Source: a virus (Duplodnaviria; Caudoviricetes). From it: 64,000 bases of DNA. This document shows, one piece after another, positions 10,121 through 38,965 of the stretch. The notes below the pieces were generated by a model. The model was not told where the DNA came from. It did not search any database and was given only the letters and a program-made list of their open reading frames with translations. The translations under genes were made by a program, and so were the position numbers. The stretch spans positions 32,001 to 96,000 of IMG/VR virus record IMGVR_UViG_3300033068_001704; one strand, 5' to 3'. The stretch's first letter is position 1, and each line of letters opens with the position of its first letter.

Positions 10121-11491
10121 GTGGCACTCGACACTCGTTACCGACCGCAGGTCTACGCCGACGTTCTTGGGCAAGAGGGTTCCGTTGAGGTCCTGCGCAG
10201 GTTCGTGCAGAACGGAGCCGGGTTCCATCAGTCCTACTTGTTCGCGGGTCCGTACGGGTCTGGCAAGACCACCTTGGGGAGGATCCTTGCCAGGTCGCTG
10301 CTCTGCGCCGCGCCGGTTGAAGGGGCGGCGTGCGACGCCTGCATCTCGTGCAAGTCGATCCTGATCGGGGGATCGAGCGAGAACTTCTTCGAGATCGATG
10401 CCGCAACGAACAGCGGCAAGGACTCGATCAGGAAGATCGTTGAGGAGCTTCAGTACGCGAGCTTCTCCGGGAAGCGGAAGATCTACCTCTTCGACGAGAG
10501 CCACCGGCTCTCGACCGACGCTCTGGACGCGCTCCTGAAGCCGATGGAGGACACCGTCCCCGGCACACAGGACAAGTCTCTCATCTGCATCTTCTGCACG
10601 ACCGAGCCCGAGCGGATGAGGGCCACGATCTTGTCCCGGTGTGCTCCGGCGTTCGTGATCAAGCCTGTGGGCCCCGAGAAGATCGGGAAGCGTCTGGCCT
10701 GGGTCGCGGACCAAGAGGGGATCCCGTACGACCTGGAAGCCCTGACTCTCATCGGAGAGCTGGTCGAGTGCCACATCCGCGATGCTTTGAAGGCGGTCGA
10801 GGGTGTTTCGATGCTCGGGGCGGTCAACAGGGAGAACGTCGCCAAGTACCTCCACCTCGATGCCGCGAACCTCGTGGTCGAGATCCTCGCTGCCATCTCC
10901 GACAACCCTTCGGAGGCGATGACGAAGGCCTCCGAACTCCTCTCTCGAACGAGTGCTGCCACGGTCTACGGGAAGCTGGCCGATGTGGCGATGCTTTCGT
11001 TCCGGGCTGGGATCGGACCCGTACACATCCCGTCCTACATGGACGCCAGCCTCATCCAGGATGTCGGGACCCGGCTCGGGACCCGACTCCTGGCGTATGC
11101 GAGCCGATTTGCGAGTCGTCCGGGGCGTCCGACCGACGCAATGTTGCTCTGCGACGTGGCTTCCCTGGCCCATGGGGTCGAACTTTCTTCTATTTCCACC
11201 CCTGCTCACCCGCCTCCCCCGCCCGTCGTGAAGAAGGTTGAGATCGTTGGTAAGGTAGAGGGCGACACGAAGCCCCGGATGGTGGACGACGTGTACGTAC
11301 ATCCGAGAGCCGTCAAGGCACCTCAGGATGGTGTGTCTCCGGCTCCGTCCTCTACCCCCCCTCCCTTCGAGCTTCAACCTCTTGAGTTCTTCCGTCTCGT
11401 AAGGATTCGAGCTGGAGAGCTGGAGCATTCGGGTGTTGGACGCGAGGGACAAACCGACATGGGTCGCGTTGGAGCTGACCAAGGCGGGTGA
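10121..11491 (+). CDS. dnaX: DNA polymerase III gamma/tau clamp-loader subunit
   Basis: RYRPQ...V.GQ, YLFAGPYGSGKTT, C4 Zn module, EIDAATNSG, FDESH.LS..A.DALLK, TILSRC. Confidence 0.93.
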   Translation: MALDTRYRPQVYADVLGQEGSVEVLRRFVQNGAGFHQSYLFAGPYGSGKTTLGRILARSLLCAAPVEGAACDACISCKSILIGGSSENFFEIDAATNSGKDSIRKIVEELQYASFSGKRKIYLFDESHRLSTDALDALLKPMEDTVPGTQDKSLICIFCTTEPERMRATILSRCAPAFVIKPVGPEKIGKRLAWVADQEGIPYDLEALTLIGELVECHIRDALKAVEGVSMLGAVNRENVAKYLHLDAANLVVEILAAISDNPSEAMTKASELLSRTSAATVYGKLADVAMLSFRAGIGPVHIPSYMDASLIQDVGTRLGTRLLAYASRFASRPGRPTDAMLLCDVASLAHGVELSSISTPAHPPPPPVVKKVEIVGKVEGDTKPRMVDDVYVHPRAVKAPQDGVSPAPSSTPPPFELQPLEFFRLVRIRAGELEHSGVGREGQTDMGRVGADQGG

Positions 11492-35815: not shown

Positions 35816-36895
35816 ATGAGCAAGAACCACTACGAGAAGATCCGCAAGATCGTGGACGGATCGTTCTACTCCCCGAGTGTCGAGAAGGATGTCAGCAACT
35901 TCACGGACGTGAAGACCAGCCACATCCTTGATGCGATCCACCAGCTCGCTCGGGGTGCCCTGTACGAGATTTCGGAGAAGCTGAACGAGGGCCGTCTCCG
36001 GTGGCTCAAGTCTGGGATGACCGAGCACGCGGGCGTGCTTGCAGGTGCGATCAAGATCGTGGAGGCGAAGGCCAAGAACCTGGAGGTGGATGTCGATCTG
36101 ATCCAGTCCACCCTCGACGGCTCTCGTTACAGCCCGGGTGTCTGCGATGCGTCCCCGGATTCTGATGGTTTGAAGGCCCGTCACCTGTGCGCGTATGCGA
36201 GGGACGTAGTCTTCAAGACCCTGTATGACGTGTCGGGGGAGTTGAACGTCCGTCGTCTTGGTTGGCTCAAGGCAGGGATGTCAGAACAGGCTGGGGTTCT
36301 GGCATGGACCATCAAGCTCGTGGAGGGGGATGGTCGCCGCAGATCTGGGGAAGGTGATTCCGACGAGGATCTCGTTGACGAGGACTCCGAGGGCAATGAG
36401 AGGTTGGCGGACGTCGAACAGAACGTCGTCCAGAAGATCTCCAAGTACCTTCACCTGAAGGATGACGCTGAGGCGGAGGAGGAGGAGGAGGAGGCCCCCG
36501 CCGCCCCTGCCCCTGACCGAACGTGCCACGTCGTGCAGCTCTGCGAACTCTCAGCGGGGGTGCTGGCAAGCGTGGAGGCAGAGGAAGCGCAGGACCTCGT
36601 CTCGCAGATCGAGACGATGGTTCGTCTGACGAAGCAGCTTCCCGATGTGGTGAGAAACCACTTCAACACGTGGATGGATGCGGCGAAGGCAGATCAAGGC
36701 TCGCTCTTTCGACGGGAGTACAGGGGGTTCCTTCGGGTCGATGTCCCGAACCCGAACATCAAACACGAAATGGTTCAGCAGCTTTCCGACAAGGCGCGAG
36801 GCTTGATGAAGGACCTTCTGGAGCATGAGGGGTTCACCATCCAGAGCAGCTTCCACGTCAACACCAACCTTTCCCAGATCACGTTCTCATGGTGA
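35816..36895 (+). CDS. Hypothetical protein with ~35-aa internal duplication
   Basis: LYEISEKLNEGRLRWLKSGMTEHAGVLA vs LYDVSGELNVRRLGWLKAGMSEQAGVLA. Confidence 0.65.
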   Translation: MSKNHYEKIRKIVDGSFYSPSVEKDVSNFTDVKTSHILDAIHQLARGALYEISEKLNEGRLRWLKSGMTEHAGVLAGAIKIVEAKAKNLEVDVDLIQSTLDGSRYSPGVCDASPDSDGLKARHLCAYARDVVFKTLYDVSGELNVRRLGWLKAGMSEQAGVLAWTIKLVEGDGRRRSGEGDSDEDLVDEDSEGNERLADVEQNVVQKISKYLHLKDDAEAEEEEEEAPAAPAPDRTCHVVQLCELSAGVLASVEAEEAQDLVSQIETMVRLTKQLPDVVRNHFNTWMDAAKADQGSLFRREYRGFLRVDVPNPNIKHEMVQQLSDKARGLMKDLLEHEGFTIQSSFHVNTNLSQITFSW

Positions 36896-37188
36896 CCCCG
36901 CCGCGCCAGCTACGCCCCGTGGTCGTGTGCCCAGAGGTGTCCGAGCCCACGCTCTTCCTCTCGTTCTCGGACGCCGTGACGGCCCTCGGTGAGGGGTGGG
37001 GGGAGCATTTCCGCTCGGTCTTCATGTCTGGCGTCGGGGTCGCGGGCGTGTGGGCAGTCCCTCATCCGGATGCCGGCGCTCATCCTGACGCCGTCGCCTT
37101 CAGCGCCAAGAGCATTTGCGAGAAGATCGACGGAGAAATTCTCAACATGCTCACTGAAGCCGCGAAGCCGTACAAGGGGAAGTGGTGA
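36889..37188 (+). CDS. Hypothetical protein
   Basis: Overlap-coupled ORF. Confidence 0.5.
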   Translation: MVTPPRQLRPVVVCPEVSEPTLFLSFSDAVTALGEGWGEHFRSVFMSGVGVAGVWAVPHPDAGAHPDAVAFSAKSICEKIDGEILNMLTEAAKPYKGKW

Positions 37189-37442
37189 CCGATCTGGAGC
37201 ATGACGCGGAGTTCCCGTTCTCCGAAGCGCTAATTCGCATGCGCGAAGGAGGGAATGTGCGTCGAAAGGGGTGGGCCTCGACAGTCCGTCTCGACAGTGA
37301 TGGGGAGATCGTGTGGGCCGACCTGTCGGCCATAGAACGCCCGCTCGCCGAGGTGGGGTTGGGGTTCATCCTCACCCACAAGAAGGCCAACCTTCGCGAC
37401 ACTGATCTGCTCGCCACTGACTGGAGCGAGGTGAAGCCGTGA
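37182..37442 (+). CDS. DUF2829/Tad2-like (Thoeris anti-defence 2) nucleotide-sponge candidate
   Basis: FSEALIRMREGGNVRRKGW ... TDLLATDW matches the family's terminal motifs. Confidence 0.7.
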   Translation: MVTDLEHDAEFPFSEALIRMREGGNVRRKGWASTVRLDSDGEIVWADLSAIERPLAEVGLGFILTHKKANLRDTDLLATDWSEVKP

Positions 37443-37612
37443 CCAACAGCGAGATCTTCCGGCGTGTCGCAGAGCACCAGCTCACCCCGAGTGAAGGGGT
37501 GGCTCTGATGCTTCAGCAGGACCGGGAAGATCTCGCTCGTCTGCGCCCCACATGGGTTCCGACATGGATCTGGGGCCGATGCGTCTCCCTGGTGGTCGGC
37601 CCACAGGCGTAA
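37439..37612 (+). CDS. Small hypothetical protein (57 aa, below ORF-track cutoff)
   Basis: GTGA overlap with upstream stop; open to TAA 37610-37612. Confidence 0.45.
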   Translation: MTNSEIFRRVAEHQLTPSEGVALMLQQDREDLARLRPTWVPTWIWGRCVSLVVGPQA

Positions 37613-37620
37613 GATCTCAG

Positions 37621-37839
37621 ATGGACGACGAGGAGCGGGTCCCTCCCGCAACGAACGAGCTTTGCCCGGCGTGCCTCGGCTCGTTGGGTCGTTCCACCGT
37701 GACCATCTACGTCGCTGGCACGGATGACAAGGAGACGATCTCCTTGGACATCGGGTGCTGGGCGAAAGCCGGCATGCCGAAGTGGTGGACTGGCAGACCG
37801 TCGCAGATGAACCTTCCTCCCGGGCGTAAGAGTCGGTAG
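37621..37839 (+). CDS. Small hypothetical protein (CxxC)
   Basis: ATG 5 nt after TAAGAT box; LCPAC. Confidence 0.5.
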   Translation: MDDEERVPPATNELCPACLGSLGRSTVTIYVAGTDDKETISLDIGCWAKAGMPKWWTGRPSQMNLPPGRKSR

Positions 37840-38367
37840 ATGGATCAAGACAACGACGACGATCCGAGGATGCTCTCCCCCGAGCAGATGGAGGCCTTGA
37901 AGAGGGGCGAGCTGAGGTTCGAGGCGGTGGTCATCGCCAACCCCAGGAAGCTCGCATCCCAGGTGAAGCAAGTCCTCGTGGTCCGCAAGGACCTGAACAT
38001 GAGGAAGGGGAAGATCGCGGCGCAGTGCGGACATGCGGTCATGAAGGTGATCCTCGACCGGATGATCGTCCGGCCGGACACCGACAACGACGCAGCCACG
38101 GTGCGTGAGTTCCTCTTCAGCTACGCCCGTCCGAGCGCCTGGGCATCTTGGCTGGAGGGGAAGTACACGAAGATCTGCGTGTCCGTGAACTCCGAGGCCG
38201 AGCTGCTGGAGGTCTACGAGAAGGCGAAGCTGGTCGCCCCCGCATCCCTGATCCAAGACTCCGGACTCACTGAGTTCGGCGGCGTCCCCACCTACACGGT
38301 GGTCGCGGTCGGCCCCGCTTGGGCTGACGAGATCGACCCCATCACCGGTCATCTCCCTCTTCTCTGA
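37840..38367 (+). CDS. pth2: Peptidyl-tRNA hydrolase, Pth2 (archaeal/eukaryotic type)
   Basis: KQVLVVRKDLNMRKGKIAAQCGHA, KICVSV, IQDSGLTEF, TVVAVGP, IDPITGHLPLL. Confidence 0.93.
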   Translation: MDQDNDDDPRMLSPEQMEALKRGELRFEAVVIANPRKLASQVKQVLVVRKDLNMRKGKIAAQCGHAVMKVILDRMIVRPDTDNDAATVREFLFSYARPSAWASWLEGKYTKICVSVNSEAELLEVYEKAKLVAPASLIQDSGLTEFGGVPTYTVVAVGPAWADEIDPITGHLPLL

Positions 38368-38408
38368 GGCCTGGTATGACGCTCGATTCGACGAAGCAGG
38401 AGGCCGCC

Positions 38409-38417
38409 ATGATTTGA
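38409..38417 (+). other. Met-Ile-stop minigene with strong RBS
   Basis: AGGAGG-ccgcc-ATG ATT TGA, in frame with downstream ATG 38436. Confidence 0.5.
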
Positions 38418-38435
38418 ACCAAGGAGGTTCTCATC

Positions 38436-38642
38436 ATGTCGCGGTCGTTCAAGTCCTATCAGAAGCGCGATCCCAAGCGTACGGGAATCTTCTTGGGTGC
38501 CTACTTCAACACGTGGTGCGGGTTCACGTGCTGCGGGTTCAGAGGCCAGTCGAACCGCCCCTCAGCGAAGAGGGAGATCCGCGCCTGGAGACGGGCCCAA
38601 GACCGCGAGGCGGTCCGAGATGGGCTCGCGGATCGAGACTGA
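38436..38642 (+). CDS. Small basic protein (MSRSFK...)
   Basis: AAGGAGG RBS; Arg/Lys-rich 68 aa. Confidence 0.65.
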   Translation: MSRSFKSYQKRDPKRTGIFLGAYFNTWCGFTCCGFRGQSNRPSAKREIRAWRRAQDREAVRDGLADRD

Positions 38643-38653
38643 GGGTCATCAAG

Positions 38654-38965
38654 GTGAGAGTACACCCCCGAATCTGTGACGCGGCCGAGGCCATTCTCCG
38701 GGAGACCGACAACCCTGCGGTGATGTGGGGGGACTGCGGTCTCCTCGACATGATCGCCGTTCGGGCTGGTCTTGAGCGAGACGGGACGAAGTGGATGGGG
38801 GGCATCCCTCATCTTCACAGCCGGGTTCTCGACGCGTTGTCGAAGCAACCTGGGGGTCTGGTGGCCGGGACGACGCGCTGCGGGTCGAACCGTCGCGTGA
38901 GGATTTTCTGGCTTCCGGAGAAAGCTCCGAAGTGGGCGCGGCCCGAAGGCGTAAGAACCTCGTGA
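38654..38965 (+). CDS. Hypothetical protein
   Basis: 3' part of ORF 38414-38965; GAGGG RBS before GTG 38654. Confidence 0.55.
   Translation: MRVHPRICDAAEAILRETDNPAVMWGDCGLLDMIAVRAGLERDGTKWMGGIPHLHSRVLDALSKQPGGLVAGTTRCGSNRRVRIFWLPEKAPKWARPEGVRTS

What the first reader, a model, noticed from the sequence alone, without database searches (positions are those of the whole stretch)
38398..38642. bar-like Met-Ile-stop minigene directly behind the Pth2 gene and in frame with a small basic protein
Seen: AGGAGG-5nt-ATG ATT TGA, then a second RBS (AAGGAGG 38421) and ATG 38436, 27 nt downstream in the same frame. Established: lambda bar minigenes encode fMet-Ile-stop, cause peptidyl-tRNA drop-off and create dependence on Pth. 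Inference: a ribosome on this minigene would cover the next RBS, so expression of the 68-aa basic protein would report UGA termination/recycling. This parallels the UAG leader at 39886, suggesting paired RF2/RF1 sensors.
Basis: partly seen in the sequence, partly recalled or inferred. Interest (0 to 1): 0.7.

Follow-up and report, generated by a model that had tools for sequence, protein, structure and literature searches.

The report
Two-codon upstream mini-ORF before phage gene
A giant phage has a ribosome-binding site, start codon, one Ile codon and a stop just ahead of a small orphan gene; it is real and kept in the two close relatives, and looks like an ordinary short upstream ORF plus hairpin tuning that gene, not a proven sensor of translation termination.

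Summary

The 68-aa ORF is a real gene: all 6 changes against its relative L001 are at third codon positions. It is an orphan with only two near-identical relatives.

Both relatives keep 38398-38433 unchanged. The 30 nt just upstream changed at 9 sites (Fisher P 0.003 for the 23-nt minigene block). Against the third-codon-position rate the block's invariance is only marginal (P 0.02-0.06).

One such element per genome is near chance for a loose SD (0.37 expected) and rare only for the full AGGAGG (0.007).

A 17-bp hairpin (-23.9 kcal/mol) pairs the minigene AUG with the gene's own AUG. An in-frame 13-codon ORF from ATG 38376 ends at the same TGA.

None of 134 other distinct Pth2 loci has a comparable minigene. 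The Ile codon is AUU, read by a common tRNA the phage itself encodes, not bar's AUA.

Best reading (0.4): a cis-acting upstream RBS/mini-ORF gating or coupling translation of the small gene. The RF2/Pth sensor idea is unsupported. The scan's earlier minigene notes on other phages describe a different device.

The parts
37840..38367 (+). Pth2 (peptidyl-tRNA hydrolase 2) gene, 175 aa, stop TGA at 38365-38367.
   Evidence: PF01981, E 3.1e-30 and 3.2e-31. Changes against L001 fall mostly at third codon positions (8 of 11).
38368..38397 (+). Fast-changing first part of the spacer. It holds the start and first 7 codons of a possible 13-codon ORF (ATG 38376; GTG in both relatives).
   Evidence: 9 of 30 sites changed across L001 and run X2. 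The frame stays open in all three lineages.
38376..38417 (+). Alternative 13-codon upstream ORF MTLDSTKQEAAMI*, ending at the same TGA. GAGG 38366-38369 lies 6 nt upstream of its start.
   Evidence: Read. In the relatives it shows 3 replacement and 2 silent changes plus ATG>GTG. There is no sign of peptide constraint.
38398..38403 (+). SD1, AGGAGG, 5 nt before ATG 38409.
   Evidence: Invariant in L001 and X2, although the two bases directly 5' of it changed.
38409..38417 (+). Two-codon mini-ORF ATG ATT TGA (fMet-Ile-stop).
   Evidence: Invariant in three lineages. It is the only mini-ORF of at most 2 codons led by a strong (5-mer) SD in the genome's spacers, and the only one ending within 30 nt of a gene start.
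38402..38446 (+). Hairpin of 17 bp in three stems (6+6+5) with loop AAGGA. The 5' arm holds the end of SD1 and the mini-ORF. The 3' arm holds the p68 AUG and codons 2-4.
   Evidence: Energy is -23.9 kcal/mol with z -3.55 and 0 of 200 shuffles as stable. It persists in 131- and 151-nt contexts. In all three lineages both AUGs have P(unpaired) of at most 0.03, and SD2 about 0.7. It ranks 12th of 257 gene-start folds. Each relative has one uncompensated disruptive change (38434 T>A in L001; 38442 C>A in X2).
38421..38427 (+). SD2, AAGGAGG, 8 nt before ATG 38436. Mostly in the hairpin loop.
   Evidence: Invariant in the relatives.
38436..38642 (+). p68, a 68-aa basic orphan protein (MSRSFK...).
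   Evidence: Crude coding score 19.3. All 6 changes against L001 are at third codon positions. No Pfam family. The only relative in 5.8 and 1.84 billion proteins is P0001 at 99% identity. The fold model is low-confidence with two helices.

Best explanation
The element is a cis-acting upstream ribosome-binding site with a two-codon ORF. It belongs to the translation-initiation region of the orphan gene p68.

On the Pth2-p68 mRNA, the p68 start codon is locked in a hairpin whose other arm is the mini-ORF itself. Ribosomes can arrive in two ways. They can load at SD1, which lies at the foot of the hairpin. Or they can restart at ATG/GTG 38376 after finishing Pth2 and read the 13-codon ORF. Either way they must melt the 5' arm and terminate at UGA 38415-38417, 18 nt before the p68 AUG.

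While such a ribosome is there, SD2 is covered. When it leaves, the p68 site is transiently single-stranded, and the same or a new small subunit can start at AUG 38436.

The net effect is that p68 output is set by traffic on the upstream site. I think positive coupling by hairpin opening is somewhat more likely than pure occlusion.

Shown: the anatomy, its conservation in three close lineages, the predicted hairpin, and that p68 is a real gene. Inferred: that ribosomes use SD1/AUG1, the direction of the effect, and co-transcription with Pth2.
For: - Anatomy.
- p68 is under purifying selection, with 6 of 6 changes at third positions.
- 38398-38433 has no change in L001 or in the X2 contig. The preceding 30 nt changed at 9 sites. 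Fisher P is 0.0034 for the 23-nt SD1-minigene block and 0.0004 for all 36 nt.
- The boundary is sharp. 38396 and 38397 changed, while AGGAGG starting at 38398 did not.
- The hairpin is stable (-23.9 kcal/mol, z -3.55). It is retained at -19.9 and -18.7 kcal/mol in the relatives, with both AUGs paired.
- No promoter-like or terminator-like site lies between Pth2 and p68.
- 165 of 257 crude gene starts have an SD-like motif, so SD-led initiation is the norm here.
- Precedent: in S. meliloti, close upstream-RBS/main-RBS pairs and 4-aa uORFs changed downstream expression in 9 of 15 tested cases, by coupling or by occlusion (PMC13285730). E. coli start-stops bind ribosomes and modulate the host gene (bioRxiv 10.1101/520783).
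Against: - Only three very close lineages exist. Against the third-codon-position rate (11.6%, perhaps 15% neutral), zero changes in 23 nt has P 0.06-0.02.
- The contrast with the upstream 30 nt may reflect an unusually fast or replaced patch rather than a constrained block.
- The two changes inside the hairpin are both disruptive and uncompensated, so there is no covariation support.
- The hairpin ranks only 12th of 257 among gene-start folds in this GC-rich genome.
- Occurrence of one such element per genome is near chance for loose SD definitions.
- AUG1 is as buried as AUG2 in the fold.
- No expression or ribosome-occupancy data exist.
Confidence: 0.4

Rival explanations
1. Incidental element with no selected role. 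The ATG arises because any arm that pairs with the p68 start context AUCAUG must read CAUGAU. The nearby AGGAGG and the TGA are chance in a purine-rich, GAG-rich genome. The block looks conserved only because the lineages are so close.
For: - CATGAT and ATCATG are reverse complements.
- AGGAGG occurs about 230 times, 25 of them in spacers, and is rarely used as a start signal.
- Tiny SD-led ORFs occur at shuffle level (2 against 1.39; 1 against 0.37).
- The conservation P against third-position sites is only 0.02-0.06.
- No comparable element lies behind 134 other distinct Pth2 genes.
Against: - With the full AGGAGG, optimal 5-nt spacing and an immediate stop within 30 nt of a gene start, the expectation is 0.007 per genome.
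- Changes stop exactly at the 5' edge of SD1 in two relatives.
- A strong exposed SD with an AUG so close to a main RBS will almost unavoidably bind ribosomes and affect the neighbour (PMC13285730).
Confidence: 0.3
2. Pure occlusion. The upstream site acts only as a brake. Ribosomes held at SD1/AUG1 or terminating at UGA block SD2 and lower p68 synthesis, with no coupling.
For: - Geometry: the UGA ends 3 nt before SD2 and the starts are 27 nt apart, within one ribosome footprint (established knowledge).
- Occlusion by close upstream RBSs was shown experimentally in S. meliloti (PMC13285730).
- The E. coli yecJ start-stop lowers host-gene output by about 16% (bioRxiv 10.1101/520783).
Against: - The p68 AUG is already sequestered by pairing with the minigene arm. 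A ribosome on that arm should free it rather than only block it.
- The uORF stop lies upstream of the main start, a layout that gave coupling for glnK in PMC13285730.
Confidence: 0.15
3. One reading: a bar-like minigene that produces fMet-Ile-tRNA drop-off. It makes p68 expression report UGA termination (RF2), recycling or Pth capacity, and is functionally tied to the adjacent phage Pth2 and paired with a UAG leader at 39886.
For: - Formal identity of the layout with bar, SD-AUG-Ile-stop (PMC8012679).
- Two-codon ORFs have the highest drop-off and slowest termination (PMC2490762).
- The phage invests heavily in translation rescue: two Pth2 hits, a tmRNA, an RF-1-domain ORF and 38 tRNAs.
- The element is conserved in both relatives.
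Against: - AUU is read by the abundant tRNA-Ile(GAU), also phage-encoded, not by a scarce tRNA as for AUA in bar or CreT (PMC8501985).
- No minigene follows Pth2 in 134 other distinct loci.
- The 39886 leader lacks an SD and differs in architecture.
- p68 has no recognisable link to translation.
- Adjacency to 1 of about 257 genes is a post-hoc coincidence.
Confidence: 0.05
4. The ATG at 38409 is the old or alternative start of p68. The in-frame TGA is either a fixed nonsense change, after which the internal ATG 38436 took over, or a leaky or gated stop giving a 9-residue longer isoform. The second case would resemble the stop-gated Pth2-like genes noted elsewhere in this scan.
For: - Same frame, 27 nt apart, with an ideal SD in front of the first ATG.
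- Earlier scan notes (e1-3754323 and others) describe phage genes opening ATG-NNN-TAG next to suppressor tRNAs.
Against: - No tRNA with anticodon UCA is among the 38 tRNAs.
- TGA is the commonest stop: 170 of 257 crude genes.
- A strong SD2 plus ATG follows the stop, so p68 needs no readthrough. The gated genes in those notes are described as translatable only when the suppressor tRNA reads the stop.
- The single change in 38418-38435 would be a replacement (ATC>AAC) if that stretch were coding.
- Being in frame has a 1 in 3 prior.
Confidence: 0.07

Closest known systems
Phage lambda bar minigenes (AUG AUA UAA; PMC8012679, citing Ontiveros 1997 and Hernandez-Sanchez 1998).
   Same: A phage-borne SD, AUG, one Ile codon and a stop, encoding fMet-Ile. 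A two-codon length is the class with the most peptidyl-tRNA drop-off (PMC2490762).
   Different: The codon is AUU (common tRNA-Ile GAU, also phage-encoded), not the rare AUA. The element sits inside the initiation region of a downstream gene and pairs with its start codon. Its toxicity and Pth dependence are untested. The role of bar for lambda itself is, to my knowledge, unknown.
Closely spaced upstream-RBS/main-RBS pairs and very short uORFs in bacterial leaders (Dietz et al. 2026, PMC13285730).
   Same: A strong SD plus start a few tens of nt before the main start. The two sites exclude each other sterically. Both coupling (the 4-aa glnK uORF) and occlusion outcomes are documented.
   Different: The start-to-start distance is 27 nt, just outside their 3-25 nt screen. 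This uORF ends before the main start rather than overlapping it. It lies between two genes of a phage operon rather than in a 5' leader. Nothing here has been tested experimentally.
E. coli 'start-stop' sites (Meydan et al., bioRxiv 10.1101/520783).
   Same: Minimal ORFs that cannot make a functional product but bind ribosomes and modulate a neighbouring ORF.
   Different: Those are AUG-stop with no sense codon, and lie out of frame inside genes. This one has one sense codon and lies upstream of the gene and in frame with it.
CreT tRNA-sequestering RNA toxins (PMC8501985).
   Same: Natural mini-ORFs whose effect comes from being translated. One CreT acts through Ile codons.
   Different: CreT is a stand-alone, strongly transcribed RNA of six codons with two AUA. 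It is repressed by CreA and Cascade and acts in trans by starving a rare tRNA. None of these features is seen here.
Stop-gated Pth2-like phage genes beside suppressor tRNAs
   Same: A start, one to three codons, then an in-frame stop ahead of a phage gene, in a phage rich in translation genes.
   Different: There the gated gene is the Pth2-like gene itself, the stop is UAG, and a matching suppressor tRNA lies nearby. Those genes are described as translatable only when that tRNA reads the stop. Here the stop is UGA, no opal suppressor is encoded, the gene is an orphan, and it has its own SD and ATG.

Membership tests
lambda bar-type toxic minigene | SD, AUG, one sense codon, stop. | tested here: met
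   AGGAGG-5 nt-ATG ATT TGA.
lambda bar-type toxic minigene | The last sense codon is read by a scarce tRNA (AUA / tRNA-Ile2), so that drop-off starves the cell. | tested here: not met
   The codon is ATT. It shares tRNA-Ile(GAU) with ATC, which accounts for 2877 of 3069 Ile codons. The phage carries this tRNA at G000 11342-11415.
lambda bar-type toxic minigene | Expression is toxic or inhibitory when Pth is limiting, with peptidyl-tRNA accumulation. | not testable with these tools
   Needs pth(rap) or pth-ts host assays.
regulatory upstream RBS / short uORF next to a main RBS | A functional-looking SD plus start close enough to the main RBS for steric conflict or coupling. | tested here: met
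   The starts are 27 nt apart. The UGA is 3 nt before SD2 and 18 nt before AUG2.
regulatory upstream RBS / short uORF next to a main RBS | Conserved in relatives beyond the neutral expectation. | tested here: inconclusive
   0 of 23 sites changed, against 9 of 30 in the adjacent spacer (P 0.003). Against third-position sites the P is only 0.02-0.06, and there are only three close lineages.
regulatory upstream RBS / short uORF next to a main RBS | Ribosome occupancy, and an effect of start-codon mutation on the main ORF. | not testable with these tools
   No RNA or ribosome-profiling data are available. Reporter assays are needed.
translational coupling by uORF-driven hairpin opening | The main start site is sequestered in a stable hairpin whose 5' arm is traversed by the upstream ORF. 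| tested here: met
   The hairpin spans 38402-38446 at -23.9 kcal/mol (z -3.55). AUG2 P(unpaired) is at most 0.03 in three lineages. The mini-ORF and the 13-codon ORF lie in or run through the 5' arm.
translational coupling by uORF-driven hairpin opening | Pairing maintained by compensatory change. | tested here: not met
   Only two changes lie inside the hairpin (38434 in L001; 38442 in X2). Both break a pair and neither is compensated. There are too few changes to count as strong evidence against.
E. coli-type start-stop | [quoted passage not shown] | tested here: not met
   One sense codon (ATT) intervenes.
stop-gated gene with phage suppressor tRNA | A cognate suppressor tRNA is encoded by the phage. 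| tested here: not met
   ARAGORN finds 38 tRNAs and none with anticodon UCA. The record is about 50% complete, so absence is not proven.
stop-gated gene with phage suppressor tRNA | The gene can be translated only by reading through the early stop, with no start signals of its own after it. | tested here: not met
   AAGGAGG-8 nt-ATG follows the stop.
selenocysteine recoding (UGA plus SECIS) | tRNA-Sec and a SECIS hairpin just 3' of the UGA. | tested here: not met
   No tRNA-Sec was found. Rfam gives no hit in the spacer. The UGA lies inside the hairpin, not 5' of it.

The most novel reading that the evidence does not exclude
A giant phage deliberately places a two-codon fMet-Ile-UGA minigene directly behind its own Pth2 gene. 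The minigene acts as a cis sensor. The rate at which ribosomes clear it (RF2 termination against dipeptidyl-tRNA drop-off and Pth recycling) decides whether the hairpin-locked start of the small basic protein p68 opens. p68 would then be an effector switched by the state of the host's termination and rescue machinery during infection.
Probability: 0.05. Interest if true: 0.65.

Novelty: new member of a known kind. Interest (0 to 1): 0.28.

Why it matters
If the upstream site is used, it is a compact natural example of a two-codon ORF embedded in the hairpin that locks the next gene's start. That layout could be tested cleanly for coupling against occlusion. It sits in a phage that carries an unusually full translation-rescue kit: two Pth2 hits, a tmRNA, an RF-1-domain ORF and 38 tRNAs.

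As it stands it adds one more candidate to the growing list of very short bacterial and phage uORFs. It does not open a new question. The main value of this check is negative: the attractive link between a bar-like minigene and Pth2, read as RF sensing, has no support beyond adjacency.

Tried and rejected
- Homologues of p68. tblastn against 50,697 phage records found none. IMG/VR contigs: none. JGI metagenome contigs: none. 5.8 billion proteins: only P0001 at 99% identity. An exhaustive HMMER search of 1.84 billion representatives found only P0001 plus a 20-residue chance-level match.
- Intermediate relatives through Pth2. The next-best Pth2 proteins are at most 64% identical and sit in unrelated contexts. 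None carries p68.
- Relatives of the downstream 103-aa gene (L082-L085) are at about 50% identity. No p68 or Pth2 match was found in any of them, and the ORF layout of L082, the one inspected, is unrelated.
- RNA evidence: no RNA holder listed.
- Rfam: only the tmRNA and a tRNA in the window, nothing in the spacer.
- Promoter and terminator consensus scan of 36800-40600: nothing between Pth2 and p68.
- The block is not repeated elsewhere in the genome, allowing up to 6 mismatches.
- p68 function: no Pfam family. The protein atlas gives only unnamed viral small proteins at chance-prone scores. The AlphaFold model has pLDDT 60 and two helices. The hydrophobic stretch is too weak for a clear membrane helix (Kyte-Doolittle maximum 0.87). 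I did not run fold searches on so poor a model.
- Alternative genetic code, an opal suppressor and selenocysteine were rejected.
- An overlapping ORF as the cause of conservation was rejected. The +2 frame (38414-38965) and the minus-strand ORF (38342-38452) are not supported by the third-position pattern, which fits only the p68 frame.

Full report
**Setting.** The window is bases 32001-96000 of a single 222,154-bp virus record. It is linear and CheckV rates it about 50% complete. GC is 63%. A crude codon-usage gene call gives 257 genes, 225 on the + strand, covering 90% of the sequence. The record carries 37 tRNA genes in one array, a 38th tRNA, a tmRNA, two PF01981 (Pth2) hits and one RF-1-domain ORF. 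It is therefore a giant phage with a large translation toolkit.

**Observation.** One search confirms every coordinate:
- Pth2 occupies 37840-38367 (PF01981, E 3e-30).
- AGGAGG lies at 38398-38403, followed by 5 nt.
- ATG ATT TGA lies at 38409-38417.
- AAGGAGG lies at 38421-38427.
- ATG 38436, in the same frame, opens a 68-aa ORF (net charge about +9).

First, ATG 38376 is also in frame. It gives a 13-codon ORF that ends at the same TGA, and a GAGG overlapping the Pth2 stop lies 6 nt upstream of it. Second, 38402-38446 is an imperfect inverted repeat.

**Is p68 a gene?** Yes. The only relative in the protein collections is P0001 at 99% identity, on a 4.8-kb Logan contig, L001. L001 is not a trivial copy. 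Elsewhere it is only 77-90% identical to the window, and 95% identical over 37965-38883. All 6 differences inside p68 fall at third codon positions. This fits only the p68 frame, not the overlapping 183-aa frame. p68 has no Pfam family and no informative look-alikes, and its fold model is poor. Its function is unknown.

**Is the minigene more than chance?**

By occurrence alone, hardly.
- A 4-mer SD core followed by ATG-NNN-stop occurs at about 11 places in the genome.
- In the 138 spacers, SD-led ORFs of at most 2 codons number 2, against 1.39 expected.
- With the stop required within 30 nt of a gene start, the expectation per genome is 0.37 (4-mer SD), 0.083 (5-mer) or 0.007 (full AGGAGG), against 1 observed.
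- AGGAGG is common here, at about 230 copies, and is used by only 7 of 257 starts.
- Over a scan of very many windows, such a hit is expected somewhere.

By conservation, the case is moderately positive.
- L001 and a third lineage seen in run X2 (a 3082-nt contig) both keep 38398-38433 unchanged.
- The 30 nt immediately upstream changed at 9 sites. The last changed bases, 38396 and 38397, abut AGGAGG.
- Fisher's test gives P 0.0034 for the 23-nt SD1-minigene block against the adjacent 30 nt.
- Against the third-codon-position rate of the flanking genes (27 of 233 sites = 11.6%), zero changes in 23 nt has P 0.06. With a 15% neutral rate it is 0.02.
- The evidence is suggestive, not decisive. 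No deeper comparison is possible, because no other relative of p68 exists in any collection searched.

**The hairpin.**
- Folding 38395-38450 gives a 17-bp, three-stem hairpin of -23.9 kcal/mol (z -3.55; 0 of 200 shuffles as stable).
- It persists in 131- and 151-nt contexts.
- C38408-U38413 (CAUGAU, containing the minigene AUG) pairs with A38433-G38438 (AUCAUG, containing the p68 AUG).
- GGCCGC pairs with p68 codons 2-4, and GAACC pairs with GGUUC.
- The loop AAGGA exposes most of SD2.
- In all three lineages both AUGs have P(unpaired) of at most 0.03, and SD2 about 0.7.
- Each relative has one disruptive, uncompensated change (38434 T>A; 38442 C>A, silent in p68). These lower the energy to -19.9 and -18.7 kcal/mol.
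- There is therefore no covariation support. The structure ranks only 12th of 257 gene-start folds in this GC-rich genome.
- The hairpin explains why an ATG stands where it does: CATGAT is the complement of ATCATG. It does not explain the perfect SD 5 nt upstream or the immediate stop.

**Link to Pth2.** Among 135 distinct Pth2 loci from viral and metagenome contigs with at least 100 nt downstream, an SD-led ATG-NNN-stop within 100 nt of the stop occurs in three. One is L001, the close relative. The other two are unrelated hits 63 and 89 nt downstream, and I judge them to be chance. A minigene behind Pth2 is thus not a feature of Pth2 loci. Adjacency here is one gene in about 257.

**Comparison with bar.** Lambda bar is AUG AUA UAA, encodes fMet-Ile, and is toxic when Pth is deficient (PMC8012679). 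The shortest minigenes give the most peptidyl-tRNA (PMC2490762). Here the codon is AUU. It is rare as a codon (188 ATT against 2877 ATC), but it is read by the same tRNA-Ile(GAU), which the phage encodes itself. A defining feature of bar and CreT action, starvation of a scarce tRNA (PMC8501985), is therefore not met.

**Mechanism.** By the known ribosome footprint (established knowledge), a ribosome with AUU in the P site covers SD2. The two starts, 27 nt apart, cannot be occupied together.

However, the p68 start is already locked by pairing with the minigene arm. A ribosome that initiates at AUG 38409 from the hairpin-foot SD1 must hold that arm and free the p68 AUG. So must one that reads the 13-codon ORF after terminating Pth2. 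It then terminates 18 nt upstream of the p68 AUG. This is the layout of translational coupling or re-initiation.

Experimental precedent exists for both signs of effect with such close upstream RBSs (PMC13285730), and for ribosome binding at minimal ORFs (bioRxiv 10.1101/520783).

My readings and odds:
- A cis-acting gate or coupler for p68: 0.4.
- An incidental element: 0.3.
- Pure occlusion: 0.15.
- An old or readthrough start: 0.07.
- A bar-like RF2/Pth sensor: 0.05.

**The claimed partner at 39886.** ATG 39886 has no SD. It opens 10 codons ending in TAG, with a second in-frame TAG after it. It precedes gene 40006, which has its own GAGGAG SD. It does not share the architecture of the 38409 element. 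'Paired RF2/RF1 sensors' is not supported.

**Earlier scan notes.** These describe phage Pth2-like genes that open with ATG-NNN-TAG beside suppressor tRNAs. I tested that reading here. The stop is TGA, no UCA-anticodon tRNA is present, TGA is the main stop, and p68 has its own SD and ATG. It is therefore a different device. The same notes pointed me to the CreT literature, which I checked.

**Verdict.** The sequence feature is real and locally conserved. It is best filed as a new member of the known class of very short upstream ORFs or upstream RBSs that tune a neighbouring gene. It has a neat start-to-start hairpin. The termination and Pth sensor story remains speculation.

Noticed in passing
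G000:C1:9273-20013 (outside the window) and window 42149-42224, 42947-43329: The phage record carries 37 tRNA genes in one array, a 38th tRNA and a tmRNA (tag ANDNSYAQAIAA). No tRNA-Trp, tRNA-Cys or UCA-anticodon tRNA was listed.
   Followed up: partly
G000:C1:187671-188000 (locus L166), outside the window: An RF-1/GGQ-domain ORF with a 196-aa open frame (PF00472, E 9e-33). It is sized more like ArfB than a full release factor. It adds to the rescue toolkit of two Pth2 hits and a tmRNA.
   Followed up: no
window 37840-37965: The N-terminal 40 or so residues of Pth2 precede the Pfam domain and are not shared with L001, whose gene is called at 138 aa. Run X2 has an in-frame 3-nt deletion at 37861. 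The extension is variable but apparently coding.
   Followed up: partly
window 38928-38960: The X2 contig has 269 extra letters between 38928 and 38960, at the junction of the 103-aa gene and the Nudix gene. This suggests a mosaic insertion in a close relative.
   Followed up: no
window 38352-38369 with 38366-38403: The CT-rich end of Pth2 (CTCCCTCTTCTC) is complementary to the GAGG/AGGAGG motifs downstream. It pairs with SD0 or SD1 in the longer folds, most strongly in the X2 variant, where SD1 P(unpaired) is 0.05.
   Followed up: partly
window 39826-40005: This is a 180-nt spacer. ATG 39886 has no SD and is followed by two in-frame TAGs before gene 40006. One terminator-like hairpin lies at 39945-39966. 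The stretch GGGGGATTCGAACC at 39826 resembles a tRNA T-arm, but neither ARAGORN nor Rfam calls a tRNA there.
   Followed up: partly
window 42149-42224: This tRNA is called Arg(CCT) by ARAGORN, with a weak Rfam score (37.7 bits). It has G instead of U at position 33 of the anticodon loop CGCCUAA. It duplicates the anticodon of the array's tRNA-Arg(CCT).
   Followed up: no
loci L018, L021, L035, L036, L039-L044, L047 (just after the Pth2 stop); L045, L075: In many unrelated phages the Pth2 gene is followed within a few bases by sequence that looks like a tRNA gene (GGTTCGAATCC-type T arms). In two loci it is followed by an ORF starting MKRVIEIR..EGGEDSKLF, which looks like a release-factor-type N-terminus. 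These were not verified with a tRNA or Pfam scan.
   Followed up: no
window 38654-38965: The 103-aa gene after p68 has relatives at about 50% identity in four viral contigs (L082-L085). None of them holds a p68 or Pth2 match, and the ORF layout of L082, the one inspected, is unrelated. It has no Pfam family.
   Followed up: partly
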